From a virus: DNA of 64,000 nucleotides. How positions within the stretch are numbered: position 1 is the first letter of the stretch; every line of letters begins with the position of its first letter. Position numbers and translations under genes: made by a program. This document shows, one piece after another, positions 13,088-58,664 of the stretch. Location: IMG/VR virus record IMGVR_UViG_3300042287_000907; one strand, 5' to 3'. The notes under the pieces are model-generated. The model did not search any database and was not told where the DNA came from. It saw nothing but the letters and a program-made list of their open reading frames with translations.

Positions 13088-13093
13088 AACAAT

Positions 13094-13168: not shown

Positions 13169-13173
13169 AAAAT

Positions 13174-13337: not shown

Positions 13338-13421
13338 GCGAGTGTGGAGAAATGGTATACTCAGGAGACTTAAAATCTCCCGTCTTAGGGCATGAGGGTT
13401 CGAGTCCCTCCACTCGCACCA
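13338..13421 (+). tRNA. tRNA-Leu(TAA)
   Basis: Class II cloverleaf; loop CTTAAAA. Confidence 0.95.
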
Positions 13422-13446
13422 GAAATTTAGCATTGCTGTGTTAATA

Positions 13447-14082: not shown

Positions 14083-14104
14083 CTGATATTTATTTCTAAA
14101 ACTC

Positions 14105-14133
14105 TTGACAAGAGACTAAAATTGTCGTATAAT
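14105..14133 (+). promoter_or_regulatory. Sigma70 promoter (second tRNA transcription unit)
   Basis: TTGACA-17nt-TATAAT. Confidence 0.9.
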
Positions 14134-14147
14134 AGTTGTTGTAGTTA

Positions 14148-14231
14148 GCCCCGGTGGTGGAATGGTAGACACGTCGGTCTTAGAAGCCGATGTCGCAAGG
14201 CGTGAGAGTTCGAGTCTCTCCTGGGGCACCA
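14148..14231 (+). tRNA. tRNA-Leu(TAG)
   Basis: Class II cloverleaf; loop CTTAGAA. Confidence 0.95.
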
Positions 14232-14393
14232 TTAAGAAATAGCATTAGCGGGTATCGTCTATGGACGCATAGACTTATGAAGAATAGGGCCATCTTACTC
14301 TTCTGAAATAACCGTGGACAATGGCTGATGAGGAGAATCGAACTCCACTCAGAAATCCGTCTCATCCCATAGGGTGTAATGTTATTTTTTAAT
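14231..14393 (+). ncRNA. About 160-nt stem-closed candidate ncRNA
   Basis: 17-bp closing stem ATTAAGAAATAGCATTA/TAATGTTATTTTTTAAT; internal hairpins GTCTATG/CATAGAC and GGAG/CTCC. Confidence 0.55.
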
Positions 14394-14399
14394 GGTTAT

Positions 14400-14473
14400 G
14401 CCTCGTTAATTTAATGGTAGAATGCCCTCCTTACAAGTGGGATACGGCAGTTCGATTCTGTCACGAGGTACCA
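14400..14473 (+). tRNA. tRNA-Val(TAC)
   Basis: Cloverleaf; loop CTTACAA. Confidence 0.9.
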
Positions 14474-14480
14474 GTAATAC

Positions 14481-14566
14481 GGAAGACTCCCATAATGGTA
14501 TTGGAGCGGCTTGCTAAGCCGTCGATCGGCAACGGTTTCGGGGTTCGAGTCCCCGGTCTTCCGCCA
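14481..14566 (+). tRNA. tRNA-Ser(GCT)
   Basis: Class II cloverleaf; loop TTGCTAA. Confidence 0.9.
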
Positions 14567-14585
14567 AATTTTAAAAAGGAAATAT

Positions 14586-14765
14586 ATGAAACCTACTAAG
14601 AACTACAAGATGTCAAAGCCACTCAAGGCCAGCCTTGCACTGTCAACATTCCAAGATCCACATCAAAAGGGGCAGTGGAAACGTGCTATGATTGACGCTG
14701 AACTATGTGCGGCCATCCAACCTAAACGTGAAAAAGGTCGCAAGCCCGACGCAGTCAAGCAATAA
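14586..14765 (+). CDS. Small basic hypothetical protein
   Basis: AAAGGA SD before ATG 14586; MKPTKNYKMSK... Confidence 0.6.
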   Translation: MKPTKNYKMSKPLKASLALSTFQDPHQKGQWKRAMIDAELCAAIQPKREKGRKPDAVKQ

Positions 14766-14771
14766 AATTCT

Positions 14772-14845
14772 GGGGGATTAGTTAAATGGGATAACATCGG
14801 CTTTGCAAGCCGAGATTGAGAGTTCGATTCTCTCATCCTCCACCA
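14772..14845 (+). tRNA. tRNA-Ala(TGC)
   Basis: G3:U70 pair; loop TTTGCAA. Confidence 0.95.
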
Positions 14846-14862
14846 GAGATATATAGTATTAG

Positions 14863-14936
14863 GCCCTTTTAGTATAATGGTATTACACCTGTTTTGTAAT
14901 CAGGTTACGGCAGTTCGATTCTGTCAAGGGGCACCA
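14863..14936 (+). tRNA. tRNA-Thr(TGT)
   Basis: Cloverleaf; loop TTTGTAA. Confidence 0.9.
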
Positions 14937-14952
14937 ATTTTACCAAAAAGTA

Positions 14953-14981
14953 TTGACAAACACAGTAAAGAATGTTATACT
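14953..14981 (+). promoter_or_regulatory. Sigma70 promoter
   Basis: TTGACA-17nt-TATACT. Confidence 0.85.
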
Positions 14982-15002
14982 TGTTTTGTTGCGTTAGAAA
15001 TA

Positions 15003-15250
15003 ACGTGACCGGCGAGATGAAGGGTAGATGAGAAAAGACACAAGGCGTGAGCTTCATGCTTACTCCGAACTTACAATCCAACTGAACATTGGAACGTGTT
15101 TGTGTGATCCGATCCCTAATAGAATGTCATTTGTTAATCGGAAATATATGGACCTCTGTGTATTGTTAATTGCACATTGTCAAAGGAAGATTACAAACCT
15201 TCCGTTGTCCTTTGTCCGGTCTTTTACTTGACCTTTCGTCAAACCGTTAT
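15003..15250 (+). ncRNA. About 245-nt structured leader or ncRNA
   Basis: Long-range pairings GATGAAGGGT/ACCTTTCGTC, AAAAGAC/GTCTTTT and ACAAGG/CTTTGT; internal hairpins; 7-nt periodic tract. Confidence 0.55.
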
Positions 15251-15273
15251 ATTTTTAAAAAGAGAGAAAATCA

Positions 15274-15849
15274 ATGAACATCACACTGCGCAAGGCCAAT
15301 GCTGTACAACACAGCATCACAGAAGCAATCAAGAACATCAAAATTGATCTCACTGTAGAGATCAATGAGTTCCAAACAGTCGAGGACGTTATCACTAAAG
15401 CTAACTCCACCTTGGTAGAAAATGACGGCCGCCGTCAGAAGCTGACCATGGCTCTGTACAATATCCGTGCTCTAGTAGGCACAGCCAATACCGCCAGTGG
15501 TATCGACACTGCATTGGCCAAAGCAGCCTTTATCGACAAGCGTATTGGTCAGCTAGAGGAATTGGCCAAGGCCACAGAAATCACTGCTCTAGATGTAATC
15601 AAAGGCAAGCTGGACAAAATCCGCAACGACAAGAGCGAATCTACTCGCAGTCGCATCTACGGCTACAGCGACACAGTTACCACAGGTGTGCTAGGACTAG
15701 AACAGATCGCACAGGCCAAAGCAGAAGTGTTGAGTCTTAAAAAGCAGAAACAGAAGATCAACGACGAAGTGTTAGAACTCAACATCAAGACAGAGATTCC
15801 TCTTTCAGAAGATGTAGTTGCTGTATTGCAGGCCGAAGCATTAATTTAA
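15274..15849 (+). CDS. Coiled-coil protein of unknown function
   Basis: Helical heptad-rich sequence; ORF track. Confidence 0.75.
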   Translation: MNITLRKANAVQHSITEAIKNIKIDLTVEINEFQTVEDVITKANSTLVENDGRRQKLTMALYNIRALVGTANTASGIDTALAKAAFIDKRIGQLEELAKATEITALDVIKGKLDKIRNDKSESTRSRIYGYSDTVTTGVLGLEQIAQAKAEVLSLKKQKQKINDEVLELNIKTEIPLSEDVVAVLQAEALI

Positions 15850-15855
15850 AACTAT

Positions 15856-15929
15856 CGCGGGATAGAGAAACGGTAACTCACGAGTCTCATAAGCTCGAGA
15901 TCCTGGTTCGATTCCGGGTCCCGCAACCA
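15856..15929 (+). tRNA. tRNA-fMet(CAT), initiator type
   Basis: C1:A72 mismatch; CGCGGG start; loop CTCATAA. Confidence 0.85.
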
Positions 15930-15943
15930 ACCATAAGGTACGT

Positions 15944-16171
15944 ATGAAAAATAAATCACTGAGTCGTGGTCCCGAAATTGACACAGAAAAATGTGTGGAA
16001 AATATAGGCGGTAATAGATTTGACTTGGTGCTGATTGCATCAGCTCGTGCCAGAGAGCTCAGTCGCAGACACAAGGCAGCTGAACTACAGACGCAGATGA
16101 ACGCACCTGTGGCAGCACTGTTAGATGTGCAGTCAGGTGCGGTGGGTCGAGAATACCTGAAAAAAGTCTAG
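15944..16171 (+). CDS. rpoZ: RNA polymerase omega subunit homolog
   Basis: CVENIGGNRFDLVLIASARAREL...PVAALLDV matches the RpoZ conserved regions. Confidence 0.8.
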   Translation: MKNKSLSRGPEIDTEKCVENIGGNRFDLVLIASARARELSRRHKAAELQTQMNAPVAALLDVQSGAVGREYLKKV

Positions 16172-16200
16172 TCTTAAGATTATAGATTAAATAAATCTAT

Positions 16201-16274
16201 GCGGGGTTCGTATAGTGGTAATACCTGAGCCTTCCAAGCTCATGCGGAGAGTTCGATTCTCTTACCCCGCTCCA
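16201..16274 (+). tRNA. tRNA-Gly(TCC)
   Basis: Cloverleaf; loop CTTCCAA. Confidence 0.95.
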
Positions 16275-16288
16275 AATAAAATAACAAG

Positions 16289-16825
16289 ATGAAAATAATC
16301 GTTACCGGACATACGAGAGGTCTAGGAAAAGGCATTTATGATTATTTTTCTAAAGACAATGAAGTTGTTGGATTTTCAAAAAGTAATGGGTTTGATATCA
16401 CTGACCCTGATTGTAGAACAGAAATAGTAAATGCATCTGAAGATGCAGATATTTTTGTGAATAACGCACATGTTAATGGAGATTCTGCACAACTGCATTT
16501 ACTTAAAGATATGCACGAACTTTGGAAACATCAAAATAAAATTATAATTAATGTAAGTAGTTTTAGATCCACTTTTGTAGATGGCAATTTTGAATTTTCA
16601 GAGTCTTTTCGAGTTAAGAAAGAGTTGGATCTTTTTTGTACAAAAAATCAACACGTATTAAAATATCCTTATCTAATAAATCTTAGACCCGGCCTTATTG
16701 ATACAGACAGAACACGCAATGAACAGGGTAAAAAAATGAATGTCCAAGACGTAATTGTGGTATTAGATTTTATTTTGAAAAACAAAGATATTTTTAAGAT
16801 ACTAGATATAGGCTTTAAAGGCTGA
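16289..16825 (+). CDS. Short-chain dehydrogenase/reductase-like protein
   Basis: TGHTRGLG, FVNNA, IINVSS and PGLIDT motifs; the catalytic YxxxK position appears as FxxxK. Confidence 0.75.
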   Translation: MKIIVTGHTRGLGKGIYDYFSKDNEVVGFSKSNGFDITDPDCRTEIVNASEDADIFVNNAHVNGDSAQLHLLKDMHELWKHQNKIIINVSSFRSTFVDGNFEFSESFRVKKELDLFCTKNQHVLKYPYLINLRPGLIDTDRTRNEQGKKMNVQDVIVVLDFILKNKDIFKILDIGFKG

Positions 16826-16855
16826 AAAAATTATTAAATTCTCAGAAGACACATA

Positions 16856-17431
16856 ATGTACAAAACGATAGACAAAAATGAAATTTTTCAAAAATTTGAT
16901 TTCTCATCGTTGATCACCAAGCAAGATGATCTCGAAGCCTGTGAAATTATCAAGACGATCATAGCTGACGGTAACTATTTTACTAATTCGCCTAAGTATC
17001 AAACCAAAGAAAACATCTTTGCTAGATCAGAAGCTGTATGGTTAAAATACCGTGTGAGTTTCATGATGAGTGCGTTCATGTATCTAGGCCGTGAAGCCAA
17101 AATATCTAACATGATGGCCTGGAGTTTTATGACCAATCTCGAGGGTGCCGAAAACCGTGATAATCTCTGGCATCATCATTGGCATCCTACTACCCCCACC
17201 GCACAAATACTCAGTGGTATTTGGTATCTACACATACCCGAGGATGTTAAAGATCGAGACTATTGCGGTACAGAGATGGCACCGGGGGGTCCTCAATCTG
17301 ATGACAGATATTTTGTGCGTCCCGCAGATGGTAATTGGTTGATCTATCCCGGCAACATGTGGCATCGCCCCGGAATCGTACAGAGCGATCAATACAGATT
17401 TGTCTTAGCCGCAGACATTCAAATAGACTAA
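16856..17431 (+). CDS. Putative 2OG-Fe(II) oxygenase
   Basis: WHHH...LSGIWYL...GTE...LIYP...WHRP...RFVLAAD. Confidence 0.7.
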   Translation: MYKTIDKNEIFQKFDFSSLITKQDDLEACEIIKTIIADGNYFTNSPKYQTKENIFARSEAVWLKYRVSFMMSAFMYLGREAKISNMMAWSFMTNLEGAENRDNLWHHHWHPTTPTAQILSGIWYLHIPEDVKDRDYCGTEMAPGGPQSDDRYFVRPADGNWLIYPGNMWHRPGIVQSDQYRFVLAADIQID

Positions 17432-17432
17432 A

Positions 17433-17507
17433 CTGGCCATAGTATAATGGATAATACAGCGAGCTTCTACCTCGCGAATGTGGGTTCGATTCCTGCTGGC
17501 CGGACCA
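17433..17507 (+). tRNA. tRNA-Arg(TCT)
   Basis: Cloverleaf; stem GCGAG/CTCGC; loop CTTCTAC. Confidence 0.9.
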
Positions 17508-17511
17508 CGCC

Positions 17512-17585
17512 GCTCTCATAGTATAAAAGCATTACACTACATTGGTAATGTAGAAACGGTGGAGCATTACCACCTGAGAGCACCA
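17512..17585 (+). tRNA. tRNA-Thr(GGT), non-canonical T and D loops
   Basis: GCTCTCA/TGAGAGC acceptor; loop TTGGTAA; T-loop AGCATTA. Confidence 0.75.
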
Positions 17586-19837: not shown

Positions 19838-21886
19838 ATGCCCTTACAGATTCGCAGAGGCACAAACGCACAAAGACAAGCCATGACACAGGCCCTAGCT
19901 CAGGGCGAACTGTTGTATGTTACTGATGAACAAAAATTATATGTTGGTAATGGCAGCACACTAGGTGGCATACAAATTACCGGTTATACTGATGAAAATG
20001 CACAGGATGCTGCTGCAGGATTGTTTGCCAACGGCACACACAGTGGTATAACTTTCGCATATAATGACGCAGGCGCTAGTATATCTGCCGAATTAGATCT
20101 AACTACCAACACAGGTACAATAGGCGGAGTATTTAAAGGCGACGTAGTAGCAGAAGATTCTACTCTACTCATAGATGCTACTTTGGGCAGAATTGTTGGA
20201 CCTGTATTTTCTAATGTCACAGGCAATGTCACAGGCAATGTCACAGGCAATGTCACAGGCAATGTCACAGGTAATGCAGACACTGCTACAACAGCTACCA
20301 CAGCCACCACAGTAGCACTTACTGCTACTAATTTTACCGCAACTGGACACTTTATCACATTCGTTGATACCGCTACTGGCAATGAAACCTTAAGAACAGA
20401 TACCGCCCTAACATATAACCCAAGCACTGATACATTAACTGCCGGCATTTTTTCGGGCACTTTATCCGGTAATACTGTCGGATATCATACAGGTGACGTT
20501 AAAGGTTCTGTATTTGCAGATGATTCAACTATGTTGGTAGATGCAACCGGCGGACGATTCTTTGGAGATCTAACAGGTAATGTCAGTGGTAACATTGAGA
20601 CTAACTTAATTTCTTCTGCAACATCTACTACCATTGTTGTAGATACCCCCGTTAATTTTCAGACTGCGGTAACTGTTGAGGGTGATTCGAATTTTTACAG
20701 TGAAGGTACCTTCATAACCAATGAAACAAATCTTCGGACTATAGCATTAGATCAATTCCATGATGACTCTGTATCGGCTTCTTTTCTTAATCTAAGAAGA
20801 GCTCGAGGAAATGATTTATCCCCATTAAACGTGTTAGATGGTGACACAATAGGTGCAGTTATATCTAGTGCCAAGGTTACTGACGGATATGACACAGTTG
20901 CTGGTATTTTTACAAAAATTCAAGGAACACCAACATCATCTATAGCGCCAGCTGGTTTTGAATTCTGGACTAGATCATCTACCACAAACACGTTCGGACC
21001 GCGATTAAGAATAAGAAATGATGGGCAATTATTTCAAAATATCGATGACTTCTCTACAGCTCCTGCTTATAGATTGGTGCAAATTCATAACAACCAGGAA
21101 AGCAGAGATTTTAGATTAACCAAGGCTAGGGAATCTGGAGGATTACCAATCGCTGTTCAACCCGACGACGTGCTTGCTAAATTTAATTTTGCAGGTTACG
21201 ACGGTGCTGACTATTCAAATTCTGCTCAAATAAGATCAGTTGTAGAAACCGGATCTACGGTAACTACTGGCAGAGTGCCGGGAAGACTTGATTTTTATGT
21301 TGCGAATAGTGTCGGTACCTTGATAGAAAAAATGTCGATAGGCGCTGTTTCTACATTAATCAATGGACAATTGATCGTAGCTTCGGCAACTGCGAACTCA
21401 TTACCATTGTATCTTCAAAATAATACCAGTTCGGTTACTGATGGTGCTAGATTAGGAATGCGTAGATCTAGGGGAACATATACTGCACCGACTGCTGTTC
21501 AAAACGGTGATGTGTTGTATAGACTAGGATGGGGCGGCTACGACGGATCGGTCTACAGAGACAGTGCCTTTATAACAGGTACCGTAACCGGAGCTGTGAG
21601 TTCAGGGGTAATACCGACTAAGTTGAGTATCTTAACTGAAAACTCTTCAGGAACTAAAACCCTTGCATTAGAAATCACAGACAGTCAGGTTGTAAAAATT
21701 GATACCATAGCATCCTTGACCGGACAGTCTACTAATTTCAGTAATGCTGTTCGTTTAGTTGTATATGCTGATAATACAGCCAGAGATGCTGCAATAACTT
21801 CACCTACTGCTGGTATGATGGTGTTTAATACCACCGGAACAAAATTCCAAGGATATACAGGCGCAGCCTGGGTTGATCTAAATTAA
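19838..21886 (+). CDS. Tail fibre / virion structural protein
   Basis: MPLQIRRGT...GELLYVTD N-terminus; NVTG repeats; repeated RxRG...VQxGD modules; GMMVFNTT...FQGY C-terminus; TAAATA upstream. Confidence 0.75.
   Translation: MPLQIRRGTNAQRQAMTQALAQGELLYVTDEQKLYVGNGSTLGGIQITGYTDENAQDAAAGLFANGTHSGITFAYNDAGASISAELDLTTNTGTIGGVFKGDVVAEDSTLLIDATLGRIVGPVFSNVTGNVTGNVTGNVTGNVTGNADTATTATTATTVALTATNFTATGHFITFVDTATGNETLRTDTALTYNPSTDTLTAGIFSGTLSGNTVGYHTGDVKGSVFADDSTMLVDATGGRFFGDLTGNVSGNIETNLISSATSTTIVVDTPVNFQTAVTVEGDSNFYSEGTFITNETNLRTIALDQFHDDSVSASFLNLRRARGNDLSPLNVLDGDTIGAVISSAKVTDGYDTVAGIFTKIQGTPTSSIAPAGFEFWTRSSTTNTFGPRLRIRNDGQLFQNIDDFSTAPAYRLVQIHNNQESRDFRLTKARESGGLPIAVQPDDVLAKFNFAGYDGADYSNSAQIRSVVETGSTVTTGRVPGRLDFYVANSVGTLIEKMSIGAVSTLINGQLIVASATANSLPLYLQNNTSSVTDGARLGMRRSRGTYTAPTAVQNGDVLYRLGWGGYDGSVYRDSAFITGTVTGAVSSGVIPTKLSILTENSSGTKTLALEITDSQVVKIDTIASLTGQSTNFSNAVRLVVYADNTARDAAITSPTAGMMVFNTTGTKFQGYTGAAWVDLN
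20213..20272 (+). repeat. 12-bp tandem repeat x5 (NVTG) in tail fibre
   Basis: AATGTCACAGGC x4 plus AATGTCACAGGT. Confidence 0.95.
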
Positions 21887-23840: not shown

Positions 23841-25088
23841 TCATTGTGTATAGCTTCCTATTTTGACAGGTATAGAAAATATAGGCTTATACCCTGTAGG
23901 AAGTCCGGCAGAATCGTGGTGTAGAAATTCAGAATCGATCCCACGTAAATAACTATATATGTGATGATTCCATTTGTCTCTTACTAATTTGGTTTCATGA
24001 TGTTCCCAAAAAACCCAATCCTGTGGTTTTCCGTTGTGTATTCCGTTTAAAAACTTAATATCTTTGACTACCTGAAATCTATCAAAAGACCAATAAGGAT
24101 ATAATACCTTTTTGGAAATATCACTTTTCTTGTTAAATTTTAAACTTGCTATAGATAATGGATCGTATCCCTCTAGATTTTCATATTTGTATTTTTCTTC
24201 GAGCAACCACCGATCTTCTGGATTATTCTTATAATACAGAAAATTCTGATATGCCATTTCTACAGCCAATAACGGCATGTCAGGAGTCCAATAAAAATAT
24301 TCACCTCCATTACCAGTGTAGGTTACATTGTGCTGCAACGTCCAATCAACAAAATGCATTTTCACTGTGTTCGGATCATCATCTAGAACTATCAAATTAG
24401 GTTTGTCTGCTCCCTCGATTAACCCAACTTTGAGGCCTTTGTTACTTAGATTTTTTTCATGATCTGAAAACCATTGCATCCTATAAAAACTAGTTGGACT
24501 GTGATAGTGATTTTGTTTTTCAAACATCGCATCTTCAACATTTTTTTCTCTAGTTATATCTGATAGCCAATCATCGATATGTATTTCTATCTCCGGATAA
24601 TTTTTGGAGATCCAATCTAAGTCAGGCTTGATCACAAAGTCCCATTCACTCAACTCGTTTCGGGGAGAAAAGTCTATGTTATTAGGCTTGTACAACCCTT
24701 TTCCGATAGCAGAGACTGGCCAATTCACATAGATAGCATCTAATTTTATCTTGTTTTTAAGAAAGGTCATTAACACATTGTGGCTATCGGATCCTCCGCT
24801 ATAACGTAAAATTAGATAATCATACTTGTCTCGCAGTTGTTGAGCTCTTTCTTTATAGAGATTTTCTAGGGGAGTAGTTCCCAACAACCTGTAATCTATA
24901 CTTTTAAATAGATCAAAATAATACATAAAAACTACACGAGCATTTATGCCTTGTTTTCTAAGACGAGTGGCCTCTAAAAGTGCTTCTACTTTATTAAAGT
25001 AATCATTGATCTTTTGACGAGTAGTACAATTATAAACTCTATAGCATCCCGAAGGGGTTGCCGATAAATCTATTTCATTCATGATCAA
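23841..25088 (-). CDS. PP-loop (N-type ATP pyrophosphatase) protein
   Basis: RAQQLRDKYDYLILRYSGGSDSHN. Confidence 0.75.
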   Translation of the reverse strand: MIMNEIDLSATPSGCYRVYNCTTRQKINDYFNKVEALLEATRLRKQGINARVVFMYYFDLFKSIDYRLLGTTPLENLYKERAQQLRDKYDYLILRYSGGSDSHNVLMTFLKNKIKLDAIYVNWPVSAIGKGLYKPNNIDFSPRNELSEWDFVIKPDLDWISKNYPEIEIHIDDWLSDITREKNVEDAMFEKQNHYHSPTSFYRMQWFSDHEKNLSNKGLKVGLIEGADKPNLIVLDDDPNTVKMHFVDWTLQHNVTYTGNGGEYFYWTPDMPLLAVEMAYQNFLYYKNNPEDRWLLEEKYKYENLEGYDPLSIASLKFNKKSDISKKVLYPYWSFDRFQVVKDIKFLNGIHNGKPQDWVFWEHHETKLVRDKWNHHIYSYLRGIDSEFLHHDSAGLPTGYKPIFSIPVKIGSYTQ

Positions 25089-26395
25089 CCTTTTTCAAAA
25101 ATTCCCAAACAATGTTTATTCAGTAATTCAAAAACGTCAGGAAGAACTTCTTTCCACTTGGTGTTTCTTTTTAGATCTAGAATATCCATTTTAGTTACAA
25201 AATCTTTTACATGATCTAAATTAACATGATCCATATATGTCTCAAGCATGTTTATTTCTATCCTAGCATACTTGAGGTATTGGGGATCATGTGAATAATC
25301 TAATAAATTTTTTATGATTTCTTCTTTTGCTGATCTGGGTAAGTGCCTTATATTCAACCACTCTGGACCATCTAAAAATCTATATTGTTGTTGTTTGATT
25401 CCGTGTTTTTTACAAAATTCGTAAACTCTTTGAACGCTGTAAATACTGGCTATTCCTATGCAGGTGCTGAGATAACTAATGTCTATGTTGTGTTCTTTAA
25501 TGTAAATTAAATTTTTTTCAAAGGTTTCAAAATTTCCCATGTAACGAATTAGATCATATCTTTCTTCAGTTTCGTCTATGCTTATGCACAAAAATACATT
25601 TTTAAAATTTATCCATTTGTCTATAACTTTTTTGTTAATGACGCTGAGATTCGTATCATACCTCAATTGTATATTTTTGGATAATCCTCTTTCAATCAAC
25701 TTATCTAGACATTCCTGCATCTGAGGCACTAATAACGGCTCCCCGCCTGTGAAATAAATGTACTCGAGTTGCGGAGCAATTTTATCAAACATTTCCCACC
25801 ATCTCTCTGATTCCCACCAAGGCTCGTATCCAGCCATCCGATATTTTCCGTTGTTGTCTTGATATATAGGAAATTCTTTTCTTTTGAGAACAAAATTGCT
25901 GCTACCAGTTAGAGCCACCCAATCTTCATACCACTGATTGCTGTGTAAAGGACTACACATGATGCATTTTTGATTACACAAATTTCCAAAGCGAAGATCT
26001 AAATTTATCACTTTAGGATTCAATAATGTTCCGTCCGACAGTGTGACGTCTTTGGCCGTTTCAACATTTATATAATTTTTTAATTCTACGGCGGTCTGTT
26101 GAAGTACACGTTGACGTTTGCTTGCACCATTAGCACATTCGACATCATAACAATTTGTACACCTCAAAGGTTGTATATTTCGAGACATGTCTCTTCTATG
26201 TTTTTTGTGTGTCTCACTGTTCATTGCTTCATCAATAGAATGCGTCATCACATTGAGAACTTTGTCGTTGATATCTCTGGCCATTCCGTAATCTGTGTCA
26301 TAGTTAGCTAGACAACATATCTTGTAATCTCCTTGTCCATCTATTTCAATTTGGCTCCATGCCTCAGGACAAAAAGATTCTAAATTAAAGCTCAT
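25085..26395 (-). CDS. Radical SAM protein with N-terminal Twitch/SPASM-like Cys cluster
   Basis: CNQKCIMC and FTGGEPL; N-terminal C...CC...CTNC. Confidence 0.85.
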   Translation of the reverse strand: MSFNLESFCPEAWSQIEIDGQGDYKICCLANYDTDYGMARDINDKVLNVMTHSIDEAMNSETHKKHRRDMSRNIQPLRCTNCYDVECANGASKRQRVLQQTAVELKNYINVETAKDVTLSDGTLLNPKVINLDLRFGNLCNQKCIMCSPLHSNQWYEDWVALTGSSNFVLKRKEFPIYQDNNGKYRMAGYEPWWESERWWEMFDKIAPQLEYIYFTGGEPLLVPQMQECLDKLIERGLSKNIQLRYDTNLSVINKKVIDKWINFKNVFLCISIDETEERYDLIRYMGNFETFEKNLIYIKEHNIDISYLSTCIGIASIYSVQRVYEFCKKHGIKQQQYRFLDGPEWLNIRHLPRSAKEEIIKNLLDYSHDPQYLKYARIEINMLETYMDHVNLDHVKDFVTKMDILDLKRNTKWKEVLPDVFELLNKHCLGIFEKG

Positions 26396-37907: not shown

Positions 37908-38434
37908 TCTTCTAAAATACTTTTATCTCCTTGATAGATTATTTTTTGCCAACAACTATCGTCAGATTCATTACTACAGGTAAGATATTTGAATTCATTT
38001 TTACAAAATTGAATATCATAAACAGATTTGAATTGGTTTATCACCCAGTCTTCCCAGTTATTGCTTTGCCGACTGATAAAAATCAATCTGCATTCTGTGT
38101 TCTCTTTAAGCCAATTTATTTGACTGAGGGCTGTTTCTGCAAAACTAGGACTCATGATTTTAGGGTAGTTAATTCTATTGGAAGGTTTCCATAATCTATT
38201 TAATATTCTATAGGTTTCTTTAGGCCAACAATTTTTAATGGCTATGCTAGAACACATTTCCGGAATACCGTCATCATTATAGCATATAGTAAATGCTGAT
38301 GCCTGAGACAGTGTTTCTCTATTGTAGTTCTTCCATAGTTTGTGAGATACATCGTTGTATTGAATATTTCTCAAATATTCGAATTCATCATCTAATGTTT
38401 TGTTTGTAGTAGGTTTCCAAGTTATGGTTTTCAT
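37889..38434 (-). CDS. Hypothetical protein (possibly GNAT-like)
   Basis: ORF track; RILNRLW motif; fold guess only. Confidence 0.5.
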   Translation of the reverse strand: MKTITWKPTTNKTLDDEFEYLRNIQYNDVSHKLWKNYNRETLSQASAFTICYNDDGIPEMCSSIAIKNCWPKETYRILNRLWKPSNRINYPKIMSPSFAETALSQINWLKENTECRLIFISRQSNNWEDWVINQFKSVYDIQFCKNEFKYLTCSNESDDSCWQKIIYQGDKSILEEWKRCL

Positions 38435-39930
38435 TATATAATCTTTTTCTTCTTGACAATGTAATACCAAACTATCATCATGACAGCTATTAAAATAAAT
38501 GTCATAGATATAGGTTTATCTAAAAATATAAACCAATCTCCTCTACTAATAATTAAAGATCGCCTTAGATGTTCTTCAAACATCTTTCCTATAACAAAAC
38601 TTAATAACACAGGTGAGGGATCACAATCTAATAATTTCAACACAACTGCGGCGATTGAAAGGGGTAATAACAATCCCATTATAAGCCAACTCTGAGTTAC
38701 TACATATGCAGCAATTAAACACGTCAGCAATATTATAATACTTAATACACTTTGAGGAATTCTAGTAATACTAACCCATAAGCTGATCAACGGAAGATTT
38801 AAAATTATTAAGAAGAAATTCCCGATCCACATAGAAACAATTAGAGTCCAAAACAATCCAGGATTGAAAGAAATCAGTTGAGGACCTGGCTGGAGTCCGA
38901 AAAGTAAAAGAACGCTTAAAATTATTGCCATGGTAGGACCAGTGGGTATTCCGAAACTTAGCAAAGGAATAAAACTAGTCTGAGCCGAAGCGTTGTTGGC
39001 GCTTTCAGGAGAAGCAATGCCTTCGATTGCTCCTTTTCCAAATTTTTCTGGATGCTTACTAATTCTTTTTTCTAAGGCATAACTTACCACAGAAGCCAGA
39101 ATTGGACCTGCTCCTGGAAGAATGCCCAACACCGATCCAATAACTGTACCTCTTAATATAGGCATAATTGCGATCCCTATTTCTTCCTTCGTGGGATACA
39201 TGTCTTTAAATTTTAAACCAGAACATTTTTCTATAATGATTTCTTTTTCTTGGCAAATAAAATTATAAAATACTTCAGCAATACCAAAAACAGACATCGC
39301 TAATATTACAAAAGGCAAACCTTCACCTAATGCAGGTATCCCAAATGTCATCCTTTCTATTCCAGAATTCACATCGTATCCTATGGTTGATAGCAGCAGT
39401 CCTAGCATCACCATTGAAAAAGATTTCAAAAAAGAATCTCCACCCAACACTATTACGGATAACAATCCCAACCCCATTAAGGATGCATATTCTACAGGAC
39501 CAAAATAGAATGCCAGCTGAGATGCAGGCACGGCAAACAATGCTATAGCTATGGTAGAGAAAGTTCCTGCCACAAATGAGCCAATGGCTGAGATAGAAAG
39601 TGCTGTGCCTGATTTACCCATTTGTGACAATGCATACCCGTCATTTACTATTACAACAGATGATGCTTCTCCTGGCAGTTTCAATAAAATTGCCGTGATA
39701 GAACCACCGTATTGAGTTCCATAATATATTCCTGCTAAAAAAATTATCGCTGTTACCGGATTTGGTATCATTAAAACACCTGGCAACAGGATACTCATTG
39801 ATGTGGCTGGGCCTAGTCCCGGCAACACTCCTACCAATGTGCCTAAGAAAACACCAGCAAAGCAATACAACAAATTCTGTAAAGAAAATGCTTCACTGCC
39901 ATACATGAGGGCCTGCTGTATTATTTCCAT
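38434..39930 (-). CDS. tctA: Tripartite tricarboxylate transporter large permease
   Basis: [12 protein letters not shown]...PG, PESANNA and GIPTG motifs; polytopic membrane protein. Confidence 0.92.
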
Positions 39931-44891: not shown

Positions 44892-45911
44892 TTAAAAACG
44901 ATGGCTGATTCCTAGTCCTAATGAACTGGTATCTAAACCGGCTGTTGCCGGAGCACTTGTTGCATTGAACATGGTCATAGACGAGTTAGATTGATTATAG
45001 ACTTTGCTATATGCTCCATAAAGTGTGGTGCGTTTACTTAGGTCTTTGGTAACCGCTAATGTAACACCGTTGCCTTTGTTGTTAGTAGTGCTGGAACCAT
45101 TTGAGCTGTGCGCATATACGACATGAGCAGCATACTGTTGCTGCAACGGTACCCTTACTGAGGTTACCCATGTCGAACTAGTCACATCAGCGGTAGTTGA
45201 ATTATCACCTCTTGCATAGGCAGTACCAACTGATAACACAGAAAAATCATAGGCCAACCCTGCAGTCGTGGTCTCACGTGCTGCCACACCCACACCTTGA
45301 TTTTTCTGATAGCCTATTCCTGCCTTTACTTTGCCTGCTTCGTATCTTAGAGCCACTCCATTTTGATCTGCATTGGCATCTGTGGTTGCTCCTACGTTGT
45401 TGGTAGCATGACCCACTATGAGTTGAAATCCTCCATAAACTGGACTGTCATATCTGACCACGTTTTTTTGATCAGTACCCAATTCAACACTGGTACCGTT
45501 AGTTGGATGCATACCAAAGTTTCCAGATTGTGATACAAATATATCCATCTCTCCTACTAGAGCCACATCAGTTCGTCCCATTCTAATTGATCCCAACGAA
45601 GACTTGATACCAATATGCGCATCTCTATTGAAAATTTCATTAGCAGCTACAGTGGTAGACCCCATTGATCCTGTGGAGGGATTCAACGTTCCTTCTATTT
45701 GAAAAAAGGTACTTAGCCCTCCTCCGAGGTCTTCTGTGCCTCTAAACCCTAAACGACTCGTGCTATATTGACTATCAGCCGCTCTAGTAAAACTAGAGGT
45801 TCCGTTGTTGTAGGACTGTATGCTTGTGTCAATTACACCGTATACCGTAACCTGTGCGTAGGCGGCAGAAACTCCAAAAAGACACAGAAATGGCAAAAAT
45901 TTTAATTTCAT
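44892..45911 (-). CDS. Gram-negative outer-membrane porin (betaproteobacterial type)
   Basis: Signal peptide; VTVYGVID, SRLGFRGTEDLGGGL and LSKRTTLY motifs; C-terminal GISHRF. Confidence 0.9.
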   Translation of the reverse strand: MKLKFLPFLCLFGVSAAYAQVTVYGVIDTSIQSYNNGTSSFTRAADSQYSTSRLGFRGTEDLGGGLSTFFQIEGTLNPSTGSMGSTTVAANEIFNRDAHIGIKSSLGSIRMGRTDVALVGEMDIFVSQSGNFGMHPTNGTSVELGTDQKNVVRYDSPVYGGFQLIVGHATNNVGATTDANADQNGVALRYEAGKVKAGIGYQKNQGVGVAARETTTAGLAYDFSVLSVGTAYARGDNSTTADVTSSTWVTSVRVPLQQQYAAHVVYAHSSNGSSTTNNKGNGVTLAVTKDLSKRTTLYGAYSKVYNQSNSSMTMFNATSAPATAGLDTSSLGLGISHRF

Positions 45912-45989
45912 TTAATTCGATCTCCATAAATTTAAATCGCTACACTATATATCCTTGAGTAATTTTCTTCAAAATTTTCTATAAAAGTA

Positions 45990-46018
45990 TTGCAATAAGA
46001 ATGATTTTGTTATATAAT
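45990..46018 (+). promoter_or_regulatory. Sigma70 promoter
   Basis: TTGCAA-17nt-TATAAT. Confidence 0.75.
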
Positions 46019-46024: not shown

Positions 46025-46135
46025 GTGGTCGTGAGCAAATTGGCAAAGCTCCCGCTGGACCCATAGTCCAGAATGGGGACGGGGCGCTGACGTAGTTCGT
46101 AGCCTTTGTAGGTTCGAAACCTACCGACCACACCA
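46025..46135 (+). ncRNA. tRNA-like RNA (111 nt) with expanded, potentially pseudoknotted anticodon arm
   Basis: GTGGTCG/CGACCAC-A-CCA acceptor, D arm with GG, T arm GTAGG-TTCGAAA-CCTAC, long V arm. Confidence 0.75.
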
Positions 46136-46177: not shown

Positions 46178-46372
46178 ATGTCAAACACAGTAGAACAACT
46201 CAAAGCAGCATTTGAAAACTTTTTAGCGGAAGATGCAAAATTTGCCGCTGGTAACAACGCAGCAGGTACTCGTGCTCGTAAAGCACTTCAAGAAGTAGGT
46301 AAAGCAGTTAAAGCTCGTCGTAACGAAATCACAGAAGAAAAGAACGCCCGTAAAGAAGCTAAAGGTGCATAA
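46178..46372 (+). CDS. Histone H1-like (Hc1 family) small protein
   Basis: KFAAGNNAAGTRARKALQE pattern. Confidence 0.7.
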   Translation: MSNTVEQLKAAFENFLAEDAKFAAGNNAAGTRARKALQEVGKAVKARRNEITEEKNARKEAKGA

Positions 46373-46938
46373 TGCATCTTGATCAAGATGCTTTTTCTAG
46401 CGGACAAGTATTGAGCAAATTATGGTTAGCTGAATCTTTAGAAAAAATCATAGAACTTAACATGCCAGCACACCCTAGACAGATACTTTGTTTAGGTGGC
46501 TGGTATGGTCTAACAAATTTTATATTAAGGATCCGCAATCGTATTGAAATCAAAACTTTTCGCAGTTTAGATATTGATCCCGAAGTTGAAAAAATCGCAG
46601 ATAAGATCAATAACTCTTGGGAGTGGCAAAATTGGCAATTTAAAAGTATAACTGGCGATGCCAACGACTTTCAATATACCATCGATGATTTCGACACAGT
46701 GATAAACACCAGCGTAGAACATATTGAATCTCAAGAATGGTTTGACAACATTCCTAAAGGAACATTAGTGGTGTTACAAAGCAACGACATGAAACATGAA
46801 GATCATTGTCATAATCATAATTCTCTAGAAAACTTTGTCAAAGATTTCAAGTTATCTGAGATTTATTTTACTGGTGAAAAACTATTTGAATATCCAGATT
46901 GGCAATTTCGAAGATTTATGATTATTGGGGTAAAATAA
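46372..46938 (+). CDS. Class I SAM-dependent methyltransferase-like protein
   Basis: LGGWYG, SLDID and VINTSVEH motifs. Confidence 0.65.
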   Translation: MHLDQDAFSSGQVLSKLWLAESLEKIIELNMPAHPRQILCLGGWYGLTNFILRIRNRIEIKTFRSLDIDPEVEKIADKINNSWEWQNWQFKSITGDANDFQYTIDDFDTVINTSVEHIESQEWFDNIPKGTLVVLQSNDMKHEDHCHNHNSLENFVKDFKLSEIYFTGEKLFEYPDWQFRRFMIIGVK

Positions 46939-57596: not shown

Positions 57597-58664
57597 ATGA
57601 ACACTACATACAGACGTATAGGCTTTGCCTGCAAATGGATCAATGATCCTTCCGAAGTTAACGGAATGAAAATTAACGCTCGCGATCGCGACTTAAATAC
57701 AGGCTCAACCACAGTTAGATGGTTGCGTGAACATCCTCAAGAAGCAGAACAGCGGCTTTGGGATTTGATGGAGCGAAACATAGAAGCCTGCTACAAATTA
57801 GTCAGCAGGGTAGGAACATTAGATGAAGATCTTAGAATGGTACGACTCAGTAGTGATATATTGCCTGTATACACTGAGCCTAGTTGGAAGTGGTTTTGGC
57901 GGCAGCCCGATGTTCGGAACTATGCCGAAAGAAATTTTAGCCGAGTGGGTGAACTGGCCCGTGAGAATCGTGTTCGGCTTAGTTTTCATCCTGGTCAGTT
58001 CACTGTGCTGGCTAGCGATAATCCAGGTATTGTCGATCGCTCAATAGAAGAATTTGAGTATCATGTAGATATGGCTCGTTGGATGGGCTATGGCAAAACA
58101 TTCCAAGACTACAAGATTAATGTGCATATTGCTGGCCGACAAGGACCGGACGGTATTCGACGTGCGTTACAACGAATGACTCCCGAAGCTCGCAACTGTC
58201 TTACCATTGAAAACGACGAAATGACCTGGGGAATCGAAGATAGCCTTGAGCTAGTCAATGACTGCGCACTTGTATTAGACATTCATCATCATTGGATTAA
58301 AACTGGAGAATATATTGAACCGACTGACGACCGTGTTAAAAGGGTTATTGATAGCTGGCGTGGTGTTCGGCCTGTCATACATTATAGTGTTTCACGGGAA
58401 GACTGTCTTGTTGAGCATCCCGGACACATCCGCCCCGATCTTTCGACCCTCTTAGAACAGGGTTACAAGAAAGCTAAACTCAGAGCGCACAGTGAGTTTT
58501 ATTGGAATTCTGCGGTCAATGCATGGGCACTGACTTTCAGAAATCAGTTCGACATCATGTGCGAATCAAAAGCAAAAAATCTTGCTTCGTTTACGTTATA
58601 CGAACAGGCTAAAAAGATTACTGTCGAGCCGCTGGTTTGCGACCGCGAGTTGTTGCTTTCTTAG
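57597..58664 (+). CDS. uvsE: UV damage endonuclease
   Basis: RIGFAC, RLSSD, SFHPGQF, IENDE and LDIHHH motifs. Confidence 0.9.
   Translation: MNTTYRRIGFACKWINDPSEVNGMKINARDRDLNTGSTTVRWLREHPQEAEQRLWDLMERNIEACYKLVSRVGTLDEDLRMVRLSSDILPVYTEPSWKWFWRQPDVRNYAERNFSRVGELARENRVRLSFHPGQFTVLASDNPGIVDRSIEEFEYHVDMARWMGYGKTFQDYKINVHIAGRQGPDGIRRALQRMTPEARNCLTIENDEMTWGIEDSLELVNDCALVLDIHHHWIKTGEYIEPTDDRVKRVIDSWRGVRPVIHYSVSREDCLVEHPGHIRPDLSTLLEQGYKKAKLRAHSEFYWNSAVNAWALTFRNQFDIMCESKAKNLASFTLYEQAKKITVEPLVCDRELLLS

What the first reader, a model, noticed from the sequence alone, without database searches (positions are those of the whole stretch)
46025..46135. tRNA-like RNA whose CAU anticodon can pair with its own internal AUG (pseudoknot)
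Seen: a perfect 7-bp acceptor stem with A73-CCA, a D arm with GG, a canonical T arm and a long V arm. The anticodon arm is replaced by CCG...CGG enclosing a hairpin CTGGA-CCCATAG-TCCAG (7-nt loop with CAT in the anticodon position, C at 33) followed by AATGGGGA. ATGGG (46073-77) is complementary to CCCAT (46060-64). It has its own sigma70 promoter, sits 28 kb from the array, and leads into an Hc1-like gene. Inference: a chargeable but non-decoding tRNA mimic (nuclease or synthetase decoy, or amino-acid donor for non-ribosomal chemistry), or a conformationally gated tRNA-Met.
Basis: partly seen in the sequence, partly recalled or inferred. Interest (0 to 1): 0.75.

Follow-up and report, generated by a model that had tools for sequence, protein, structure and literature searches.

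The report
Phage tRNA-shaped non-decoding small RNA
This is a real, widely conserved small RNA of large freshwater phages that keeps the body and CCA end of a leucine tRNA but has an over-long "anticodon" arm, so it almost certainly does not read codons; the self-pairing pseudoknot proposed for it is not supported.

Summary
The 111-nt element (window 46025-46135, + strand) is real. It belongs to a family of about 100 distinct variants in lake and river viral contigs. A type-1 core-pattern scan found no true copy in the bacterial and archaeal genomes held. blastn found none in cultured phages, and Rfam 15 has no matching family.

- **Supported features:** The acceptor stem, T stem, long variable arm, distal hairpin and the G18:U55 elbow contact all covary. 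A73 is invariant and CCA is encoded in 74 of 80 variants. A sigma-70-type promoter lies 6-7 nt before nucleotide 1 in 98 different upstream regions. The body is closest to tRNA-Leu.
- **Why it is not a decoder:** The anticodon arm is about twice the normal length and position 33 is C, U or A. A sister subfamily in the same slot (promoter, RNA, Hc1 gene) replaces the CAU hairpin with a GNRA-capped hairpin.
- **Pseudoknot:** The CCCAU/AUGGG pseudoknot is not supported. A39:N50 pairs in only 41 of 80 variants, and no pair shows a compensatory change. The G-run more likely pairs with the invariant CCC after the D stem.
- **Splicing:** Contigs from RNA libraries carry the unspliced form.

The function is unknown. 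My best guess is a trans-acting tRNA-Leu-shaped scaffold that displays an exchangeable hairpin to a protein partner.

The parts
45990..46018 (+). Dedicated sigma-70-type promoter (TTGCAA, 17 nt, TATAAT). The -10 box ends 6 nt before nucleotide 1 of the RNA, so the predicted start is the mature 5' end.
   Evidence: 10 of 12 consensus matches. In one search, 98 distinct upstream regions of family members all carry TTGAC/TTGCA at -35 and TATAAT/TATACT about 6-7 nt before G1/A1. This includes copies inside tRNA arrays.
46025..46135 (+). The tRNA-shaped small RNA (111 nt), type 1 of the family.
   Evidence: sequence; family model 127.8 bits, E=1e-32, the only copy in the window; not called by ARAGORN, and no Rfam family matches even at E<=10.
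46025..46031 (+). Acceptor stem 5' strand; pairs with 46125-46131.
   Evidence: 100% paired in 80 variants; 5 of 7 pairs have compensatory changes.
46034..46050 (+). D arm: stem AGC/GCT and loop AAATTGGCAAA with G18 G19. The loop resembles that of the phage's tRNA-Leu.
   Evidence: G18:U55 changes to A18:G55 together (71 versus 9 sequences), which supports a tRNA elbow.
46051..46053 (+). Invariant CCC. Proposed 5' strand of the proximal helix of the long arm, pairing with GGG at 46075-46077.
Evidence: RNAalifold. The sister subfamily keeps CC/GG 91-100% paired. C27->G with G53->U occurs in L289/L297.
46055..46071 (+). Distal hairpin: 5-bp stem CTGGA/TCCAG and loop CCCATAG (46060-46066). C32:G38 may form a sixth pair.
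   Evidence: 98% paired; 4 of 5 pairs compensatory. Loop is C(U)-N-C-A-Y-A-G; position 33 is C 54, U 23, A 3; 32:38 is C-G or U.G.
46072..46080 (+). AAT (variable, 3' side of the internal loop), then the G-run GGGG (last three G invariant, first in over 90% of variants), then AC linker (A/C/G; C/U/A).
   Evidence: AAT varies as AAA, AGT, ATT, TAA, ACA, TTA, AGA, ATA. The G-run stayed constant in a scan that did not require it.
46081..46106 (+). Long variable arm. The stem starts at G57:U82 and the loop region holds an invariant UA.
   Evidence: 3 of 3 base pairs compensatory; G:U to A:U at its first pair.
46108..46124 (+). T arm GTAGG-TTCGAAA-CCTAC.
   Evidence: 100% paired; the 50:64 pair is compensatory. 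Some relatives have T loop GGCAGGA together with a changed D loop.
46132..46135 (+). Discriminator A73 and encoded CCA.
   Evidence: A73 is invariant; CCA is encoded in 74 of 80 variants. All 28 ARAGORN-called tRNAs of the array also encode CCA.
46178..46372 (+). Hc1-type histone H1-like gene, in the same transcription unit.
   Evidence: Pfam PF07432, E=1.5e-14. Of the 80 best Hc1 loci in viral contigs, 71 have the RNA directly upstream, plus one cut by a contig end.
46374..46401 (+). Intrinsic-terminator-like hairpin plus T run that closes the promoter-RNA-Hc1 unit.

Best explanation
The element is a single-copy, independently transcribed, tRNA-Leu-derived small RNA that does not decode.

**What it looks like.** It keeps the parts of a tRNA that give the L shape and the 3' end: 7-bp acceptor stem, D/T elbow, long variable arm and A73-CCA. 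Its anticodon arm is replaced by a roughly 11-12-layer irregular stem. That stem has a proximal CC(C)/GG(G) helix, a small internal loop, and a distal hairpin that differs between subfamilies. In type 1 (this window) the distal hairpin looks like a CAU anticodon stem-loop. In type 2 it is capped by a GNRA tetraloop.

**How it most likely works (inferred).** It is made at a high level from its own promoter, starting at its mature 5' end. It is freed from the downstream Hc1 mRNA or downstream tRNAs at the CCA end and accumulates as a stable tRNA-like particle. It then acts in trans as a tRNA mimic. The tRNA chassis gives stability and access to tRNA-binding proteins, possibly including charging by LeuRS, which needs neither anticodon nor variable arm. 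The conserved long arm with its exchangeable head is the site for a specific partner. The type-1 head could be bait for a factor that recognises CAU anticodon loops.

**Shown:** conservation, covariation, promoter, synteny, the Leu-like body, loss of the anticodon in relatives, and presence of the unspliced form in RNA libraries.

**Inferred:** stability, processing, trans action, charging and the partner.

**My odds:**
- non-decoding tRNA-derived RNA: about 0.85;
- acts in trans as a mimic or scaffold: about 0.55;
- specifically a decoy or sponge against a host tRNA-targeting factor: about 0.2;
- charged with leucine: about 0.35.
For: - **Family size and range:** searches give about 100 distinct variants, all in viral or freshwater metagenome contigs.
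- **Structure:** (covariation of acceptor, hairpin, V and T helices; 93.6% of cells paired, against 20-48% when partners are slid; G18:U55 tertiary covariation).
- **Promoter:** (fixed distance to +1 in 98 distinct upstream regions, including array copies).
- **Leu-like body:** (next best hit in the window is tRNA-Leu(taa), 36 bits; the 8 best non-family hits in 15 arrays are all tRNA-Leu). A73 is invariant and the D loop resembles the phage's own tRNA-Leu(tag).
- **Non-decoding:** position 33 is C/U/A and 32:38 can pair. The type-2 subfamily at the same locus has GNRA heads and no CAU. Rfam's tRNA model gives no hit at E<=10 and ARAGORN makes no call.
- **Arm architecture:**
- **Copy number:** one per large genome, including a 353-kb contig rated 98% complete.
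- **Expression:** metatranscriptome contigs from several studies cover the RNA. One (depth 11.6) runs unbroken from 46034 to the CCA end with no differences and no joint.
Against: - No experiment bears on stability, charging, partner or phenotype.
- The RNA is always the first gene of a transcription unit and is tightly linked to Hc1 (72 of 80 loci). A cis role as a processing or stability leader would explain this equally well.
- Contig ends at the CCA may reflect strain branching in the assembly graph rather than RNA ends (caveat).
- One RNA-library contig extends 465 nt upstream of the promoter, so DNA carry-over or read-through cannot be excluded.
- The type-1 loop C-N-C-A-U-A-G is strongly conserved, and 23 of 80 variants have U33. 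Some anticodon-like use in type 1 is therefore not strictly excluded.
- No candidate partner protein was found in the window: the neighbours have no Pfam or PHROG match.
Confidence: 0.55

Rival explanations
1. Cis-acting 5' leader. The tRNA-like fold sits at the very start of the transcript to stabilise it, or to provide a processing site (RNase E/Z/P type) that releases the Hc1 mRNA or downstream tRNAs. This is how plant mitochondrial t-elements and herpesvirus tRNA-miRNA units work. The RNA itself would have no trans function.
For: It is always first in its transcription unit, with the promoter 6-7 nt upstream. 71 of the 80 best Hc1 loci have it directly upstream, plus one cut by a contig end. 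In arrays it precedes tRNA-Ser(gct) by 5-50 nt. A terminator closes the RNA-Hc1 unit. RNA contigs bridging the CCA end into the spacer exist.
Against: A mere processing signal would not need an invariant A73, an encoded CCA, a conserved long arm with an invariant G-run, a sequence-conserved loop, or the elbow covariation. The same RNA serves two unrelated downstream contexts (Hc1 versus tRNA arrays), and Hc1 genes function without it in some phages (L007, L235, L250). Contigs that stop at the CCA have higher depth than those that bridge it (11.6 and 23.5 versus 2-4.6; weak evidence).
Confidence: 0.2
2. A genuine but odd decoding tRNA: a long-V-arm tRNA with CAU anticodon (Met, or Ile after lysidine modification). 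Its altered anticodon stem would make it resistant to a host anticodon nuclease while it still works on the ribosome.
For: With 14 nt removed in silico it is called tRNA-Met(cat). C34-A35-U36-A37 is conserved and 23 of 80 variants have U33. These phages also carry long-V-arm tRNAs with a UAU anticodon. Nuclease-resistant phage tRNAs are known (PMC11464382, PMC11555353).
Against: The arm is 3-4 bp plus an internal loop longer than any known decoder. U33 is replaced by C or A in 57 of 80 variants. C32:G38 can pair. The anticodon drifts (CAC in five variants, GAU in one). Type-2 relatives in the same slot have no anticodon at all. The window already has two ordinary CAU tRNAs.
Confidence: 0.06
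3. One reading: a tRNA-Met whose CAU anticodon is masked by pairing with the internal AUGGG, as a pseudoknot or alternative hairpin that acts as a conformational gate.
For: The complementarity exists in this sequence. The unconstrained minimum-energy fold of this one sequence uses CCCAU/AUGGG as an alternative hairpin. The C37->U changes keep a G.U pair.
Against: No pair shows a compensatory change. A39:N50 is broken in 39 of 80 variants and U40:N49 in 12 of 80. CAC-loop variants are not compensated. The G-run is kept in type-2 RNAs that lack the CCCAU loop, and there it pairs with CC after the D stem. As a 5-bp pseudoknot only one nucleotide would be left to cross the 5-bp hairpin stem, which is sterically implausible (my inference from general pseudoknot geometry).
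Confidence: 0.03
4. A Y-RNA-like partner of a Ro60/Rsr protein. The tRNA-like module plus a bulged helix (type 2 has GGUCCG...CACUUGG, reminiscent of the Ro-binding GGUCCGA motif) would tether a ring protein to an exonuclease.
For: Bacterial and phage YrlA RNAs mimic tRNA (PMC4201824). The type-2 arm contains G-U-(C)-C-G with an unpaired C.
Against: No TROVE-domain gene was found in five large contigs carrying the RNA, including one rated 98% complete; the same search found TROVE in 2 of the 14 control genomes. There is no Rfam Y_RNA or YrlA hit. The topology is the reverse of YrlA: the ends lie in the acceptor stem, not in the Ro-binding stem. The motif is absent in type 1 and varies by covariation in type 2.
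Confidence: 0.03

Closest known systems
Class II (long-variable-arm) tRNA-Leu of bacteria and of these phages
   Same: 7/5 acceptor/T architecture, U8, A14, G18G19 and a T loop TTCGAAA with covarying elbow, a long V arm, A73-CCA, and a Leu-type D loop. tRNA-Leu genes are the best non-family hits of the family model.
   Different: The anticodon arm is about twice as long, with an internal loop. No Leu anticodon is present and position 33 is not conserved. The distal module is exchangeable (CAU-like loop or GNRA). It has its own promoter at +1. tRNA finders do not detect it.
Pseudo-tRNAs and regulatory tRNA-like small RNAs, e.g. Bacillus cereus tRNA-Other and inactive allo-tRNAs (as cited in PMC5389517)
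   Same: Free-standing tRNA-shaped RNAs with an acceptor end that are thought not to serve normal decoding and may be charged non-canonically or act as regulators.
   Different: Different lineage (phage, Leu-derived), a long arm with an invariant G-run, and fixed synteny with an Hc1 gene or a tRNA array. Nothing is known about charging.
YrlA / bacterial and phage Y RNAs (PMC4201824)
   Same: Phage-encoded non-coding RNAs that mimic the tRNA elbow and are handled by tRNA enzymes. Both have a long extra helix as the binding site for a protein.
   Different: In YrlA the ends lie in the protein-binding stem and there is no free CCA acceptor end; here it is the reverse. No Rsr/TROVE gene is present and there is no Rfam hit.
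tRNA-like processing elements: plant mitochondrial t-elements (PMC1920247) and the murine gammaherpesvirus 68 tRNA-like/miRNA units (the latter from my own knowledge)
   Same: A tRNA-like fold placed next to another gene in one transcript, which can define RNA ends. The viral tRNA-like RNAs receive CCA but are not charged.
   Different: Those are usually degenerate in sequence. This family keeps A73-CCA, the elbow and a conserved arm, and occurs in two unrelated contexts.
Engineered 'tRNA scaffold' RNAs, in which the anticodon stem-loop is replaced by a cargo hairpin for stable expression (technology referred to in PMC3401473; details from my own knowledge)
   Same: The same design: an intact acceptor, D, T and CCA body, with the anticodon arm extended and carrying a variable hairpin.
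   Different: This one is natural, evolved and phage-borne. Whether the head is a 'cargo' is inference.
Phage T4 stable RNAs 'species 1 and 2' (rnaC, rnaD) in the T4 tRNA region (from memory, not checked here)
   Same: Small stable phage RNAs of unknown function that are encoded with tRNAs and matured like tRNAs.
   Different: No sequence relation was tested. The T4 RNAs are not known to have a full cloverleaf with a long V arm.

Membership tests
tRNA (Rfam RF00005 / ARAGORN definition) | Complete cloverleaf recognised by tRNA models | tested here: not met
   ARAGORN makes no call at default settings. Rfam's tRNA model gives no hit at the gathering score or at E<=10 on 251 nt. It is called only after 14 nt are deleted in silico.
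tRNA (Rfam RF00005 / ARAGORN definition) | 7-bp acceptor stem, 5-bp T stem, D arm, and elbow contacts G18:U55 and G19:C56 | tested here: met
   acceptor and T stems 100% paired with compensatory changes. G18:U55 changes to A18:G55 in 9 sequences.
tRNA (Rfam RF00005 / ARAGORN definition) | 5-bp anticodon stem with a 7-nt loop, U33 and a conserved anticodon | tested here: not met
   The arm has 3-4 extra pairs plus an internal loop. Position 33 is C 54, U 23, A 3. C32:G38 can pair. The sister subfamily has GNRA tetraloops.
tRNA (Rfam RF00005 / ARAGORN definition) | Discriminator plus CCA 3' end | tested here: met
   A73 is invariant and CCA is encoded in 74 of 80 variants.
tRNA (Rfam RF00005 / ARAGORN definition) | Aminoacylation and delivery to the ribosome | not testable with these tools
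   Needs charging assays or tRNA-seq. Only a Leu-like identity set can be inferred.
Intron-containing tRNA | One contiguous insert whose removal restores a normal anticodon arm | tested here: not met
   The extra nucleotides lie on both strands (3 + 11 nt). The forced ARAGORN intron model (tRNA-Pro, 15-nt intron) pairs hairpin bases with the G-run, although those bases covary with their hairpin partners. RNA-library contigs show no joint.
   0 of 5 pairs have compensatory changes, and two pairs are broken in 39 and 12 of 80 sequences.
Y RNA / YrlA | Encoded with a Ro60/Rsr (TROVE) gene, and matching the Y_RNA or YrlA models | tested here: not met
   No TROVE in 5 large contigs, while the control search found it in 2 of 14 control genomes. 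No Rfam hit.
tmRNA | tRNA-Ala-like domain with G3:U70 and a tag reading frame | tested here: not met
   ARAGORN in tmRNA mode finds nothing even at a lowered threshold. Pair 3:70 is G-C in 79 of 80 variants.

The most novel reading that the evidence does not exclude
A natural 'tRNA scaffold' system. Large freshwater phages use a tRNA-Leu chassis with its own promoter to display exchangeable hairpin heads on a conserved stalk. One head copies a CAU anticodon stem-loop and another is a GNRA-capped helix. The RNA would act as a sponge or decoy for host tRNA-targeting proteins (anticodon nucleases, toxins or modification enzymes) or for a phage protein such as Hc1. That would make it an RNA-based anti-defence or regulatory module of a kind not yet described.
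Probability: 0.2. Interest if true: 0.85.

Novelty: new variant of a known kind. Interest (0 to 1): 0.62.

Why it matters
Phage tRNA genes have recently become central to the arms race with bacterial tRNA-cleaving defences. Until now the phage side has consisted of working tRNAs.

This family appears to be a well-conserved, apparently expressed phage RNA that keeps everything a tRNA-binding protein or processing enzyme would see, yet cannot plausibly decode. It also swaps its 'head' between lineages. It offers three things:
- a clean, testable case of tRNA mimicry by a DNA phage;
- a natural counterpart of the engineered tRNA scaffold;
- a warning that tRNA finders and Rfam miss such genes, which therefore go unannotated in large phage genomes.

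It also gives about 100 sequences with rich covariation for structural work.

Tried and rejected
- **Rfam:** no family matches the element, at gathering scores or at E<=10 on the 251-nt region.
- **ARAGORN:** nothing at default settings, with introns allowed, or in tmRNA mode. At lowered thresholds it forces a 'tRNA-Pro(ggg) with 15-nt intron' or a partial 'tRNA-Val'. I rejected both because they break the covarying hairpin.
- **Mis-counted pattern scans:** searches used the wrong spacing and returned only chance matches.
- **Bacterial and archaeal genomes:** the scan of one genome for each of 185,579 species with the type-1 core pattern gave 21 matches, all in GC-rich DNA without any tRNA shape. 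This covers the type-1 pattern only.
- **Cultured phages:** no blastn match to the RNA. Synechococcus phage S-SRM01 has an Hc1 gene but no family member.
- **Earlier notes of this scan:** nothing.
- **Ro60/Y-RNA idea:** no TROVE gene.
- **Loop pairing with the Hc1 start region:** CAUAG could pair with UUAUG here, but relatives have AAAUG. I rejected this by eye.
- **Closest co-resident tRNA by simple pairwise alignment:** inconclusive. The covariance model gave the clear Leu result instead.
- **RNA-library contigs:** parts of the stretch without cover, and contig ends at the CCA, cannot be read as RNA ends. Assembly graphs break where strains diverge, and that happens exactly at the borders of this conserved element.
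- **Neighbouring proteins:** no PHROG or Pfam hit for the 188-aa and 166-aa ORFs; only a weak methyltransferase lead.
- **Literature:** searches found no description of this RNA. The catalogue of 10,006 unnamed viral candidate structures (PMC10690425) may contain it, but its text does not describe it.
Full report
**What is there**

It has:
- a 7-bp acceptor stem followed by A and CCA;
- a D arm with GG;
- a canonical T arm and a long variable arm;
- in place of the anticodon arm, a longer region containing the hairpin CTGGA-CCCATAG-TCCAG followed by AATGGGGACGG.

ARAGORN finds 28 tRNAs at 9.7-17.5 kb but not this element. Rfam finds 26 tRNAs and nothing here, even at E<=10 on a 251-nt slice. 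A sigma-70-type promoter (TTGCAA, 17 nt, TATAAT) ends 6 nt before the first base. An Hc1-type histone-like gene (PF07432, E=1.5e-14) starts 42 nt after the CCA. A terminator-like hairpin follows that gene. If CCG and AATGGGGACGG are removed in silico, ARAGORN calls a 97-nt long-V-arm 'tRNA-Met(cat)' at default settings. The description 'tRNA with a two-sided insertion at the top of the anticodon stem' is therefore accurate.

**It is a large family**

- An exact 17-mer from the hairpin occurs in 20 IMG/VR contigs, and all are the same element.
- Degenerate patterns that each left part of the element free gave many more in IMG/VR and in JGI metagenomes. In total there are 80 distinct 'type 1' sequences.
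- The same core pattern in one genome for each of 185,579 bacterial and archaeal species gave only chance matches without tRNA shape.
- No cultured phage in the INPHARED set matches.
- A covariance model built from the 80 sequences scores the window's copy at 127.8 bits, and it is the only copy in the window.
- Each of five large contigs, including a 353-kb contig rated 98% complete, has one copy. One metagenome contig has two.

The hosts are unknown. The ThyX gene beside the element is closest to those of Limnohabitans, Methylophilales and Curvibacter phages. The window also carries a Porin_4 porin and a TctA transporter. A freshwater betaproteobacterial host therefore seems more likely than a cyanobacterium. 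All sequencing runs holding the stretch are lake, river or freshwater samples.

**Structure from comparison (80 type-1 sequences)**

| Helix | Paired | Compensatory pairs |
|---|---|---|
| Acceptor stem | 100% | 5 of 7 |
| Distal hairpin | 98% | 4 of 5 |
| Base of the variable arm | 99.6% | 3 of 3 |
| T stem | 100% | 1 |

Sliding the partners by 1-3 columns drops pairing from 93.6% to 20-48%. The strongest mutual-information pairs are exactly these helices. The tertiary pair G18:U55 changes to A18:G55 in nine sequences, which also have altered T and D loops. The RNA therefore folds as a tRNA-like L with a long variable arm. A73 is invariant and CCA is encoded in 74 of 80 variants. All 28 ARAGORN-called tRNAs of the window's array also encode CCA.

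**The pseudoknot is not supported**

None of the five proposed pairs (CCCAU with AUGGG) shows a compensatory change. A39:N50 is a standard pair in only 41 of 80 sequences and U40:N49 in 68 of 80. The three bases before the G-run vary freely (AAU, AAA, AGU, AUU, UAA, ACA, UUA, AGA, AUA). Variants with a CAC loop are not compensated.

The unconstrained minimum-energy fold of this single sequence does use CCCAU/AUGGG, but as an alternative hairpin that destroys the covarying one. The z-score is only -2.2.

As a 5-bp pseudoknot, a single nucleotide would have to span the 5-bp hairpin stem. I consider that sterically implausible (inference).

**A sister subfamily changes the picture**

The Hc1 protein has close relatives in at least 578 viral contigs. 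In the best 80 loci the family model finds an RNA directly upstream of Hc1 in 71. One more is cut by a contig end. Eight lack the RNA, and four of these keep the promoter plus a 6-bp mini-hairpin.

Twenty of the 71 are type 1. Forty-nine are 'type 2', scoring 63-87 bits. Type 2 has the same acceptor stem, D arm, variable arm, T arm and ACCA, but the distal module differs. It reads CCUCC, [G/A/U]GU, C, then a 4-bp hairpin CGUU-GNRA-AACG, C, AC[U/C], [U/A]GGG, AAY, GGGGC. There is no CAU and no 7-nt loop, and the cap is a GNRA tetraloop (GCGA, GUGA, GAGA, GGGA). Two intermediates (L289, L297) have yet another GNRA or U-rich head.

So the family's conserved function does not need an anticodon. 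Together with position 33 (C 54, U 23, A 3) and a 32:38 pair that is C-G or U.G, this makes ribosomal decoding very unlikely for type 1 as well.

**Which proximal helix?**

RNAalifold instead pairs the invariant (U)CCC after the D stem with the G-run. Four lines of evidence favour the second option:
- In the type-2 and intermediate alignment, the counterpart of CCG/CGG is only 71% paired (7 and 9 of 23 broken), while CC/GG next to the distal module is 91-100% paired.
- G57 pairs with U82 at the base of the variable arm (GU 15, AU 7, GC 1), which is incompatible with G57 pairing to C29.
- In L289 and L297, C27->G is accompanied by G53->U, keeping a wobble pair. This is one evolutionary event only.

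In type 1 the positions themselves are nearly invariant, so this remains the better-supported model rather than a proof. In this model the arm consists of 3-4 bp, an internal loop (G30 opposite A48-N50), 5-6 bp and a 5-7-nt loop. That is about 11-12 stacked layers. Type 2 has an arm of the same overall size.

**Origin and identity**

In the window, the next best hit of the family model is tRNA-Leu(taa) at 36 bits. In 15 phage tRNA arrays the eight best non-family hits are all tRNA-Leu (31-47 bits), followed by Tyr and Arg. Ser is not among the 17 top hits checked. The D loop (GGAAUUGGCAGAC in most members) resembles that of the phage's own tRNA-Leu(tag) (GGAAUGGUAGAC).

From established knowledge of E. 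coli-type LeuRS, A73 and the D-loop/elbow architecture are its identity elements, and neither the anticodon nor the variable arm is needed. Leucylation is therefore conceivable, but it is untested here.

**Context**

There are two contexts.

*Upstream of Hc1.* In the window's lineage and in type 2, the RNA sits between its promoter and Hc1.

*Inside tRNA arrays.* Members with acceptor stems GCGGCUG or GCGACUG mostly lie inside tRNA arrays (17 of the 20 loci examined). The RNA lies directly upstream of tRNA-Ser(gct) in nearly all of them, often after another tRNA-Ser (uga or gga).

In both contexts, 98 distinct upstream sequences carry a -35 box (TTGAC/TTGCA) and a -10 box (TATAAT/TATACT) about 6-7 nt before a purine at position 1. 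The RNA is thus predicted to start at its mature 5' end, without an RNase P step, and it is always the first gene of its unit.

**Expression**

Four metatranscriptome runs from different studies hold parts of the stretch as assembled contigs.
- One contig (depth 11.6) starts, right after an Illumina adapter remnant, at 46034 and runs without any difference or joint to 46135. The unspliced insert-bearing form is therefore present in an RNA library.
- Another contig (depth 23.5) carries a type-2 arm joined to the shared T arm.
- Contigs that bridge the CCA into the spacer have lower depth (2-4.6).
- No part of 45850-46008 is covered.

These are weak hints of a discrete RNA. Contigs cannot prove ends, assembly graphs break where strains diverge (exactly at the borders of this element), and one contig extends 465 nt upstream.

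**What it most likely does**

The data show a single-copy, strongly conserved, independently transcribed, tRNA-Leu-derived RNA that cannot plausibly decode. It carries a conserved stalk with an exchangeable head.

I think it most likely accumulates as a stable tRNA-like particle and acts in trans as a mimic or scaffold. The chassis would give stability and entry to tRNA-handling proteins. The arm would bind a specific partner. The type-1 head, which copies a CAU anticodon stem-loop (C34, A35, U36, A37 conserved), would be bait for something that reads such loops.

Recent work shows that bacterial defences cleave tRNAs in the anticodon arm or variable loop, and that phages answer with their own tRNAs (PMC11464382, PMC11555353, PMC13056530, PMC13096335). 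A decoy role is therefore reasonable, but it is only one possibility (about 0.2).

The main rival is a cis role as a 5' leader and processing element for Hc1 or the downstream tRNAs (about 0.2). That would explain the position but not the conserved A73-CCA, elbow and arm. A real decoding tRNA (about 0.06), the gated pseudoknot (about 0.03) and a Y-RNA-like role (about 0.03; no TROVE gene) are unlikely.

**Novelty**

tRNA-like non-coding RNAs are a known kind. Examples are pseudo-tRNAs such as B. cereus tRNA-Other, inactive allo-tRNAs, YrlA, and viral tRNA-like processing units. This family is not in Rfam 15, and I found no paper that describes it. It differs from all of those in combining four features:
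- a complete acceptor/CCA end;
- a long variable arm;
- a doubled arm with swappable heads;
- a dedicated promoter at +1.

I rate it a new variant of a known kind, of moderate to high interest.

Noticed in passing
window 10887-10978 (+); also L314:1501-1599, and in L062, L090, L094: A second odd tRNA. It is a 92-nt long-variable-arm tRNA with anticodon UAU, A73-CCA, a 4-nt D loop and a 6-7-bp anticodon stem, lying between two tRNA-Cys genes. A 99-nt counterpart in another phage's array has a normal 5-bp stem, loop CUUAUAC and a ~27-nt V arm, and ARAGORN misses it. It is unclear which synthetase charges a class-II-shaped tRNA that reads AUA.
   Followed up: partly
window 17512-17585 (+): A tRNA found by Rfam (51 bits) but not by ARAGORN. 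By eye it is a tRNA-Thr(GGU) with a non-canonical T loop (AGCAUUA).
   Followed up: partly
window 11673-11750 (+) and the whole array 9740-17585: The 'tRNA-Leu(caa)' is only 78 nt, i.e. it has a short variable region, which is unusual for a bacterial-type tRNA-Leu. No tRNA-Tyr is present in the window's array, although related phage arrays have one.
   Followed up: no
window 46372-46938 (+): The 188-aa ORF right after Hc1 is syntenic in relatives and directly follows the second RNA copy in L116. It belongs to a virus-only family with no Pfam or PHROG match. A language-model search gives a weak lead to class I SAM-dependent methyltransferases, and the sequence has a GxG-like motif (LCLGGWYG).
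   Followed up: partly
L007:3800-3850; L250, L269, L274, L276 (about 60 nt before the Hc1 start): Hc1 loci that lack the RNA keep the promoter, followed by a 6-bp mini-hairpin (for example GUGGCA...UGUCAC) that resembles the RNA's acceptor stem. It may be a deletion remnant.
   Followed up: no
window 19838-21886 (+): A 682-aa protein with an N-terminal Mtd_N domain (major tropism determinant, the target protein type of diversity-generating retroelements). No reverse transcriptase was looked for.
   Followed up: no
window 38434-39930 (-), 44892-45911 (-), 25085-26395 (-), 57597-58664 (+): Host-like auxiliary genes: a TctA tricarboxylate transporter subunit, a Porin_4 outer-membrane porin, a radical-SAM/SPASM enzyme and a UvdE UV endonuclease. 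Together with the ThyX similarities, these point to a freshwater betaproteobacterial host rather than a cyanobacterium.
   Followed up: partly
L116:3141-3252 and L116:6140-6249: One metagenome contig carries two type-1 copies 3 kb apart. One lies before Hc1 and one before the 187-aa methyltransferase-like gene. Each has its own promoter.
   Followed up: partly
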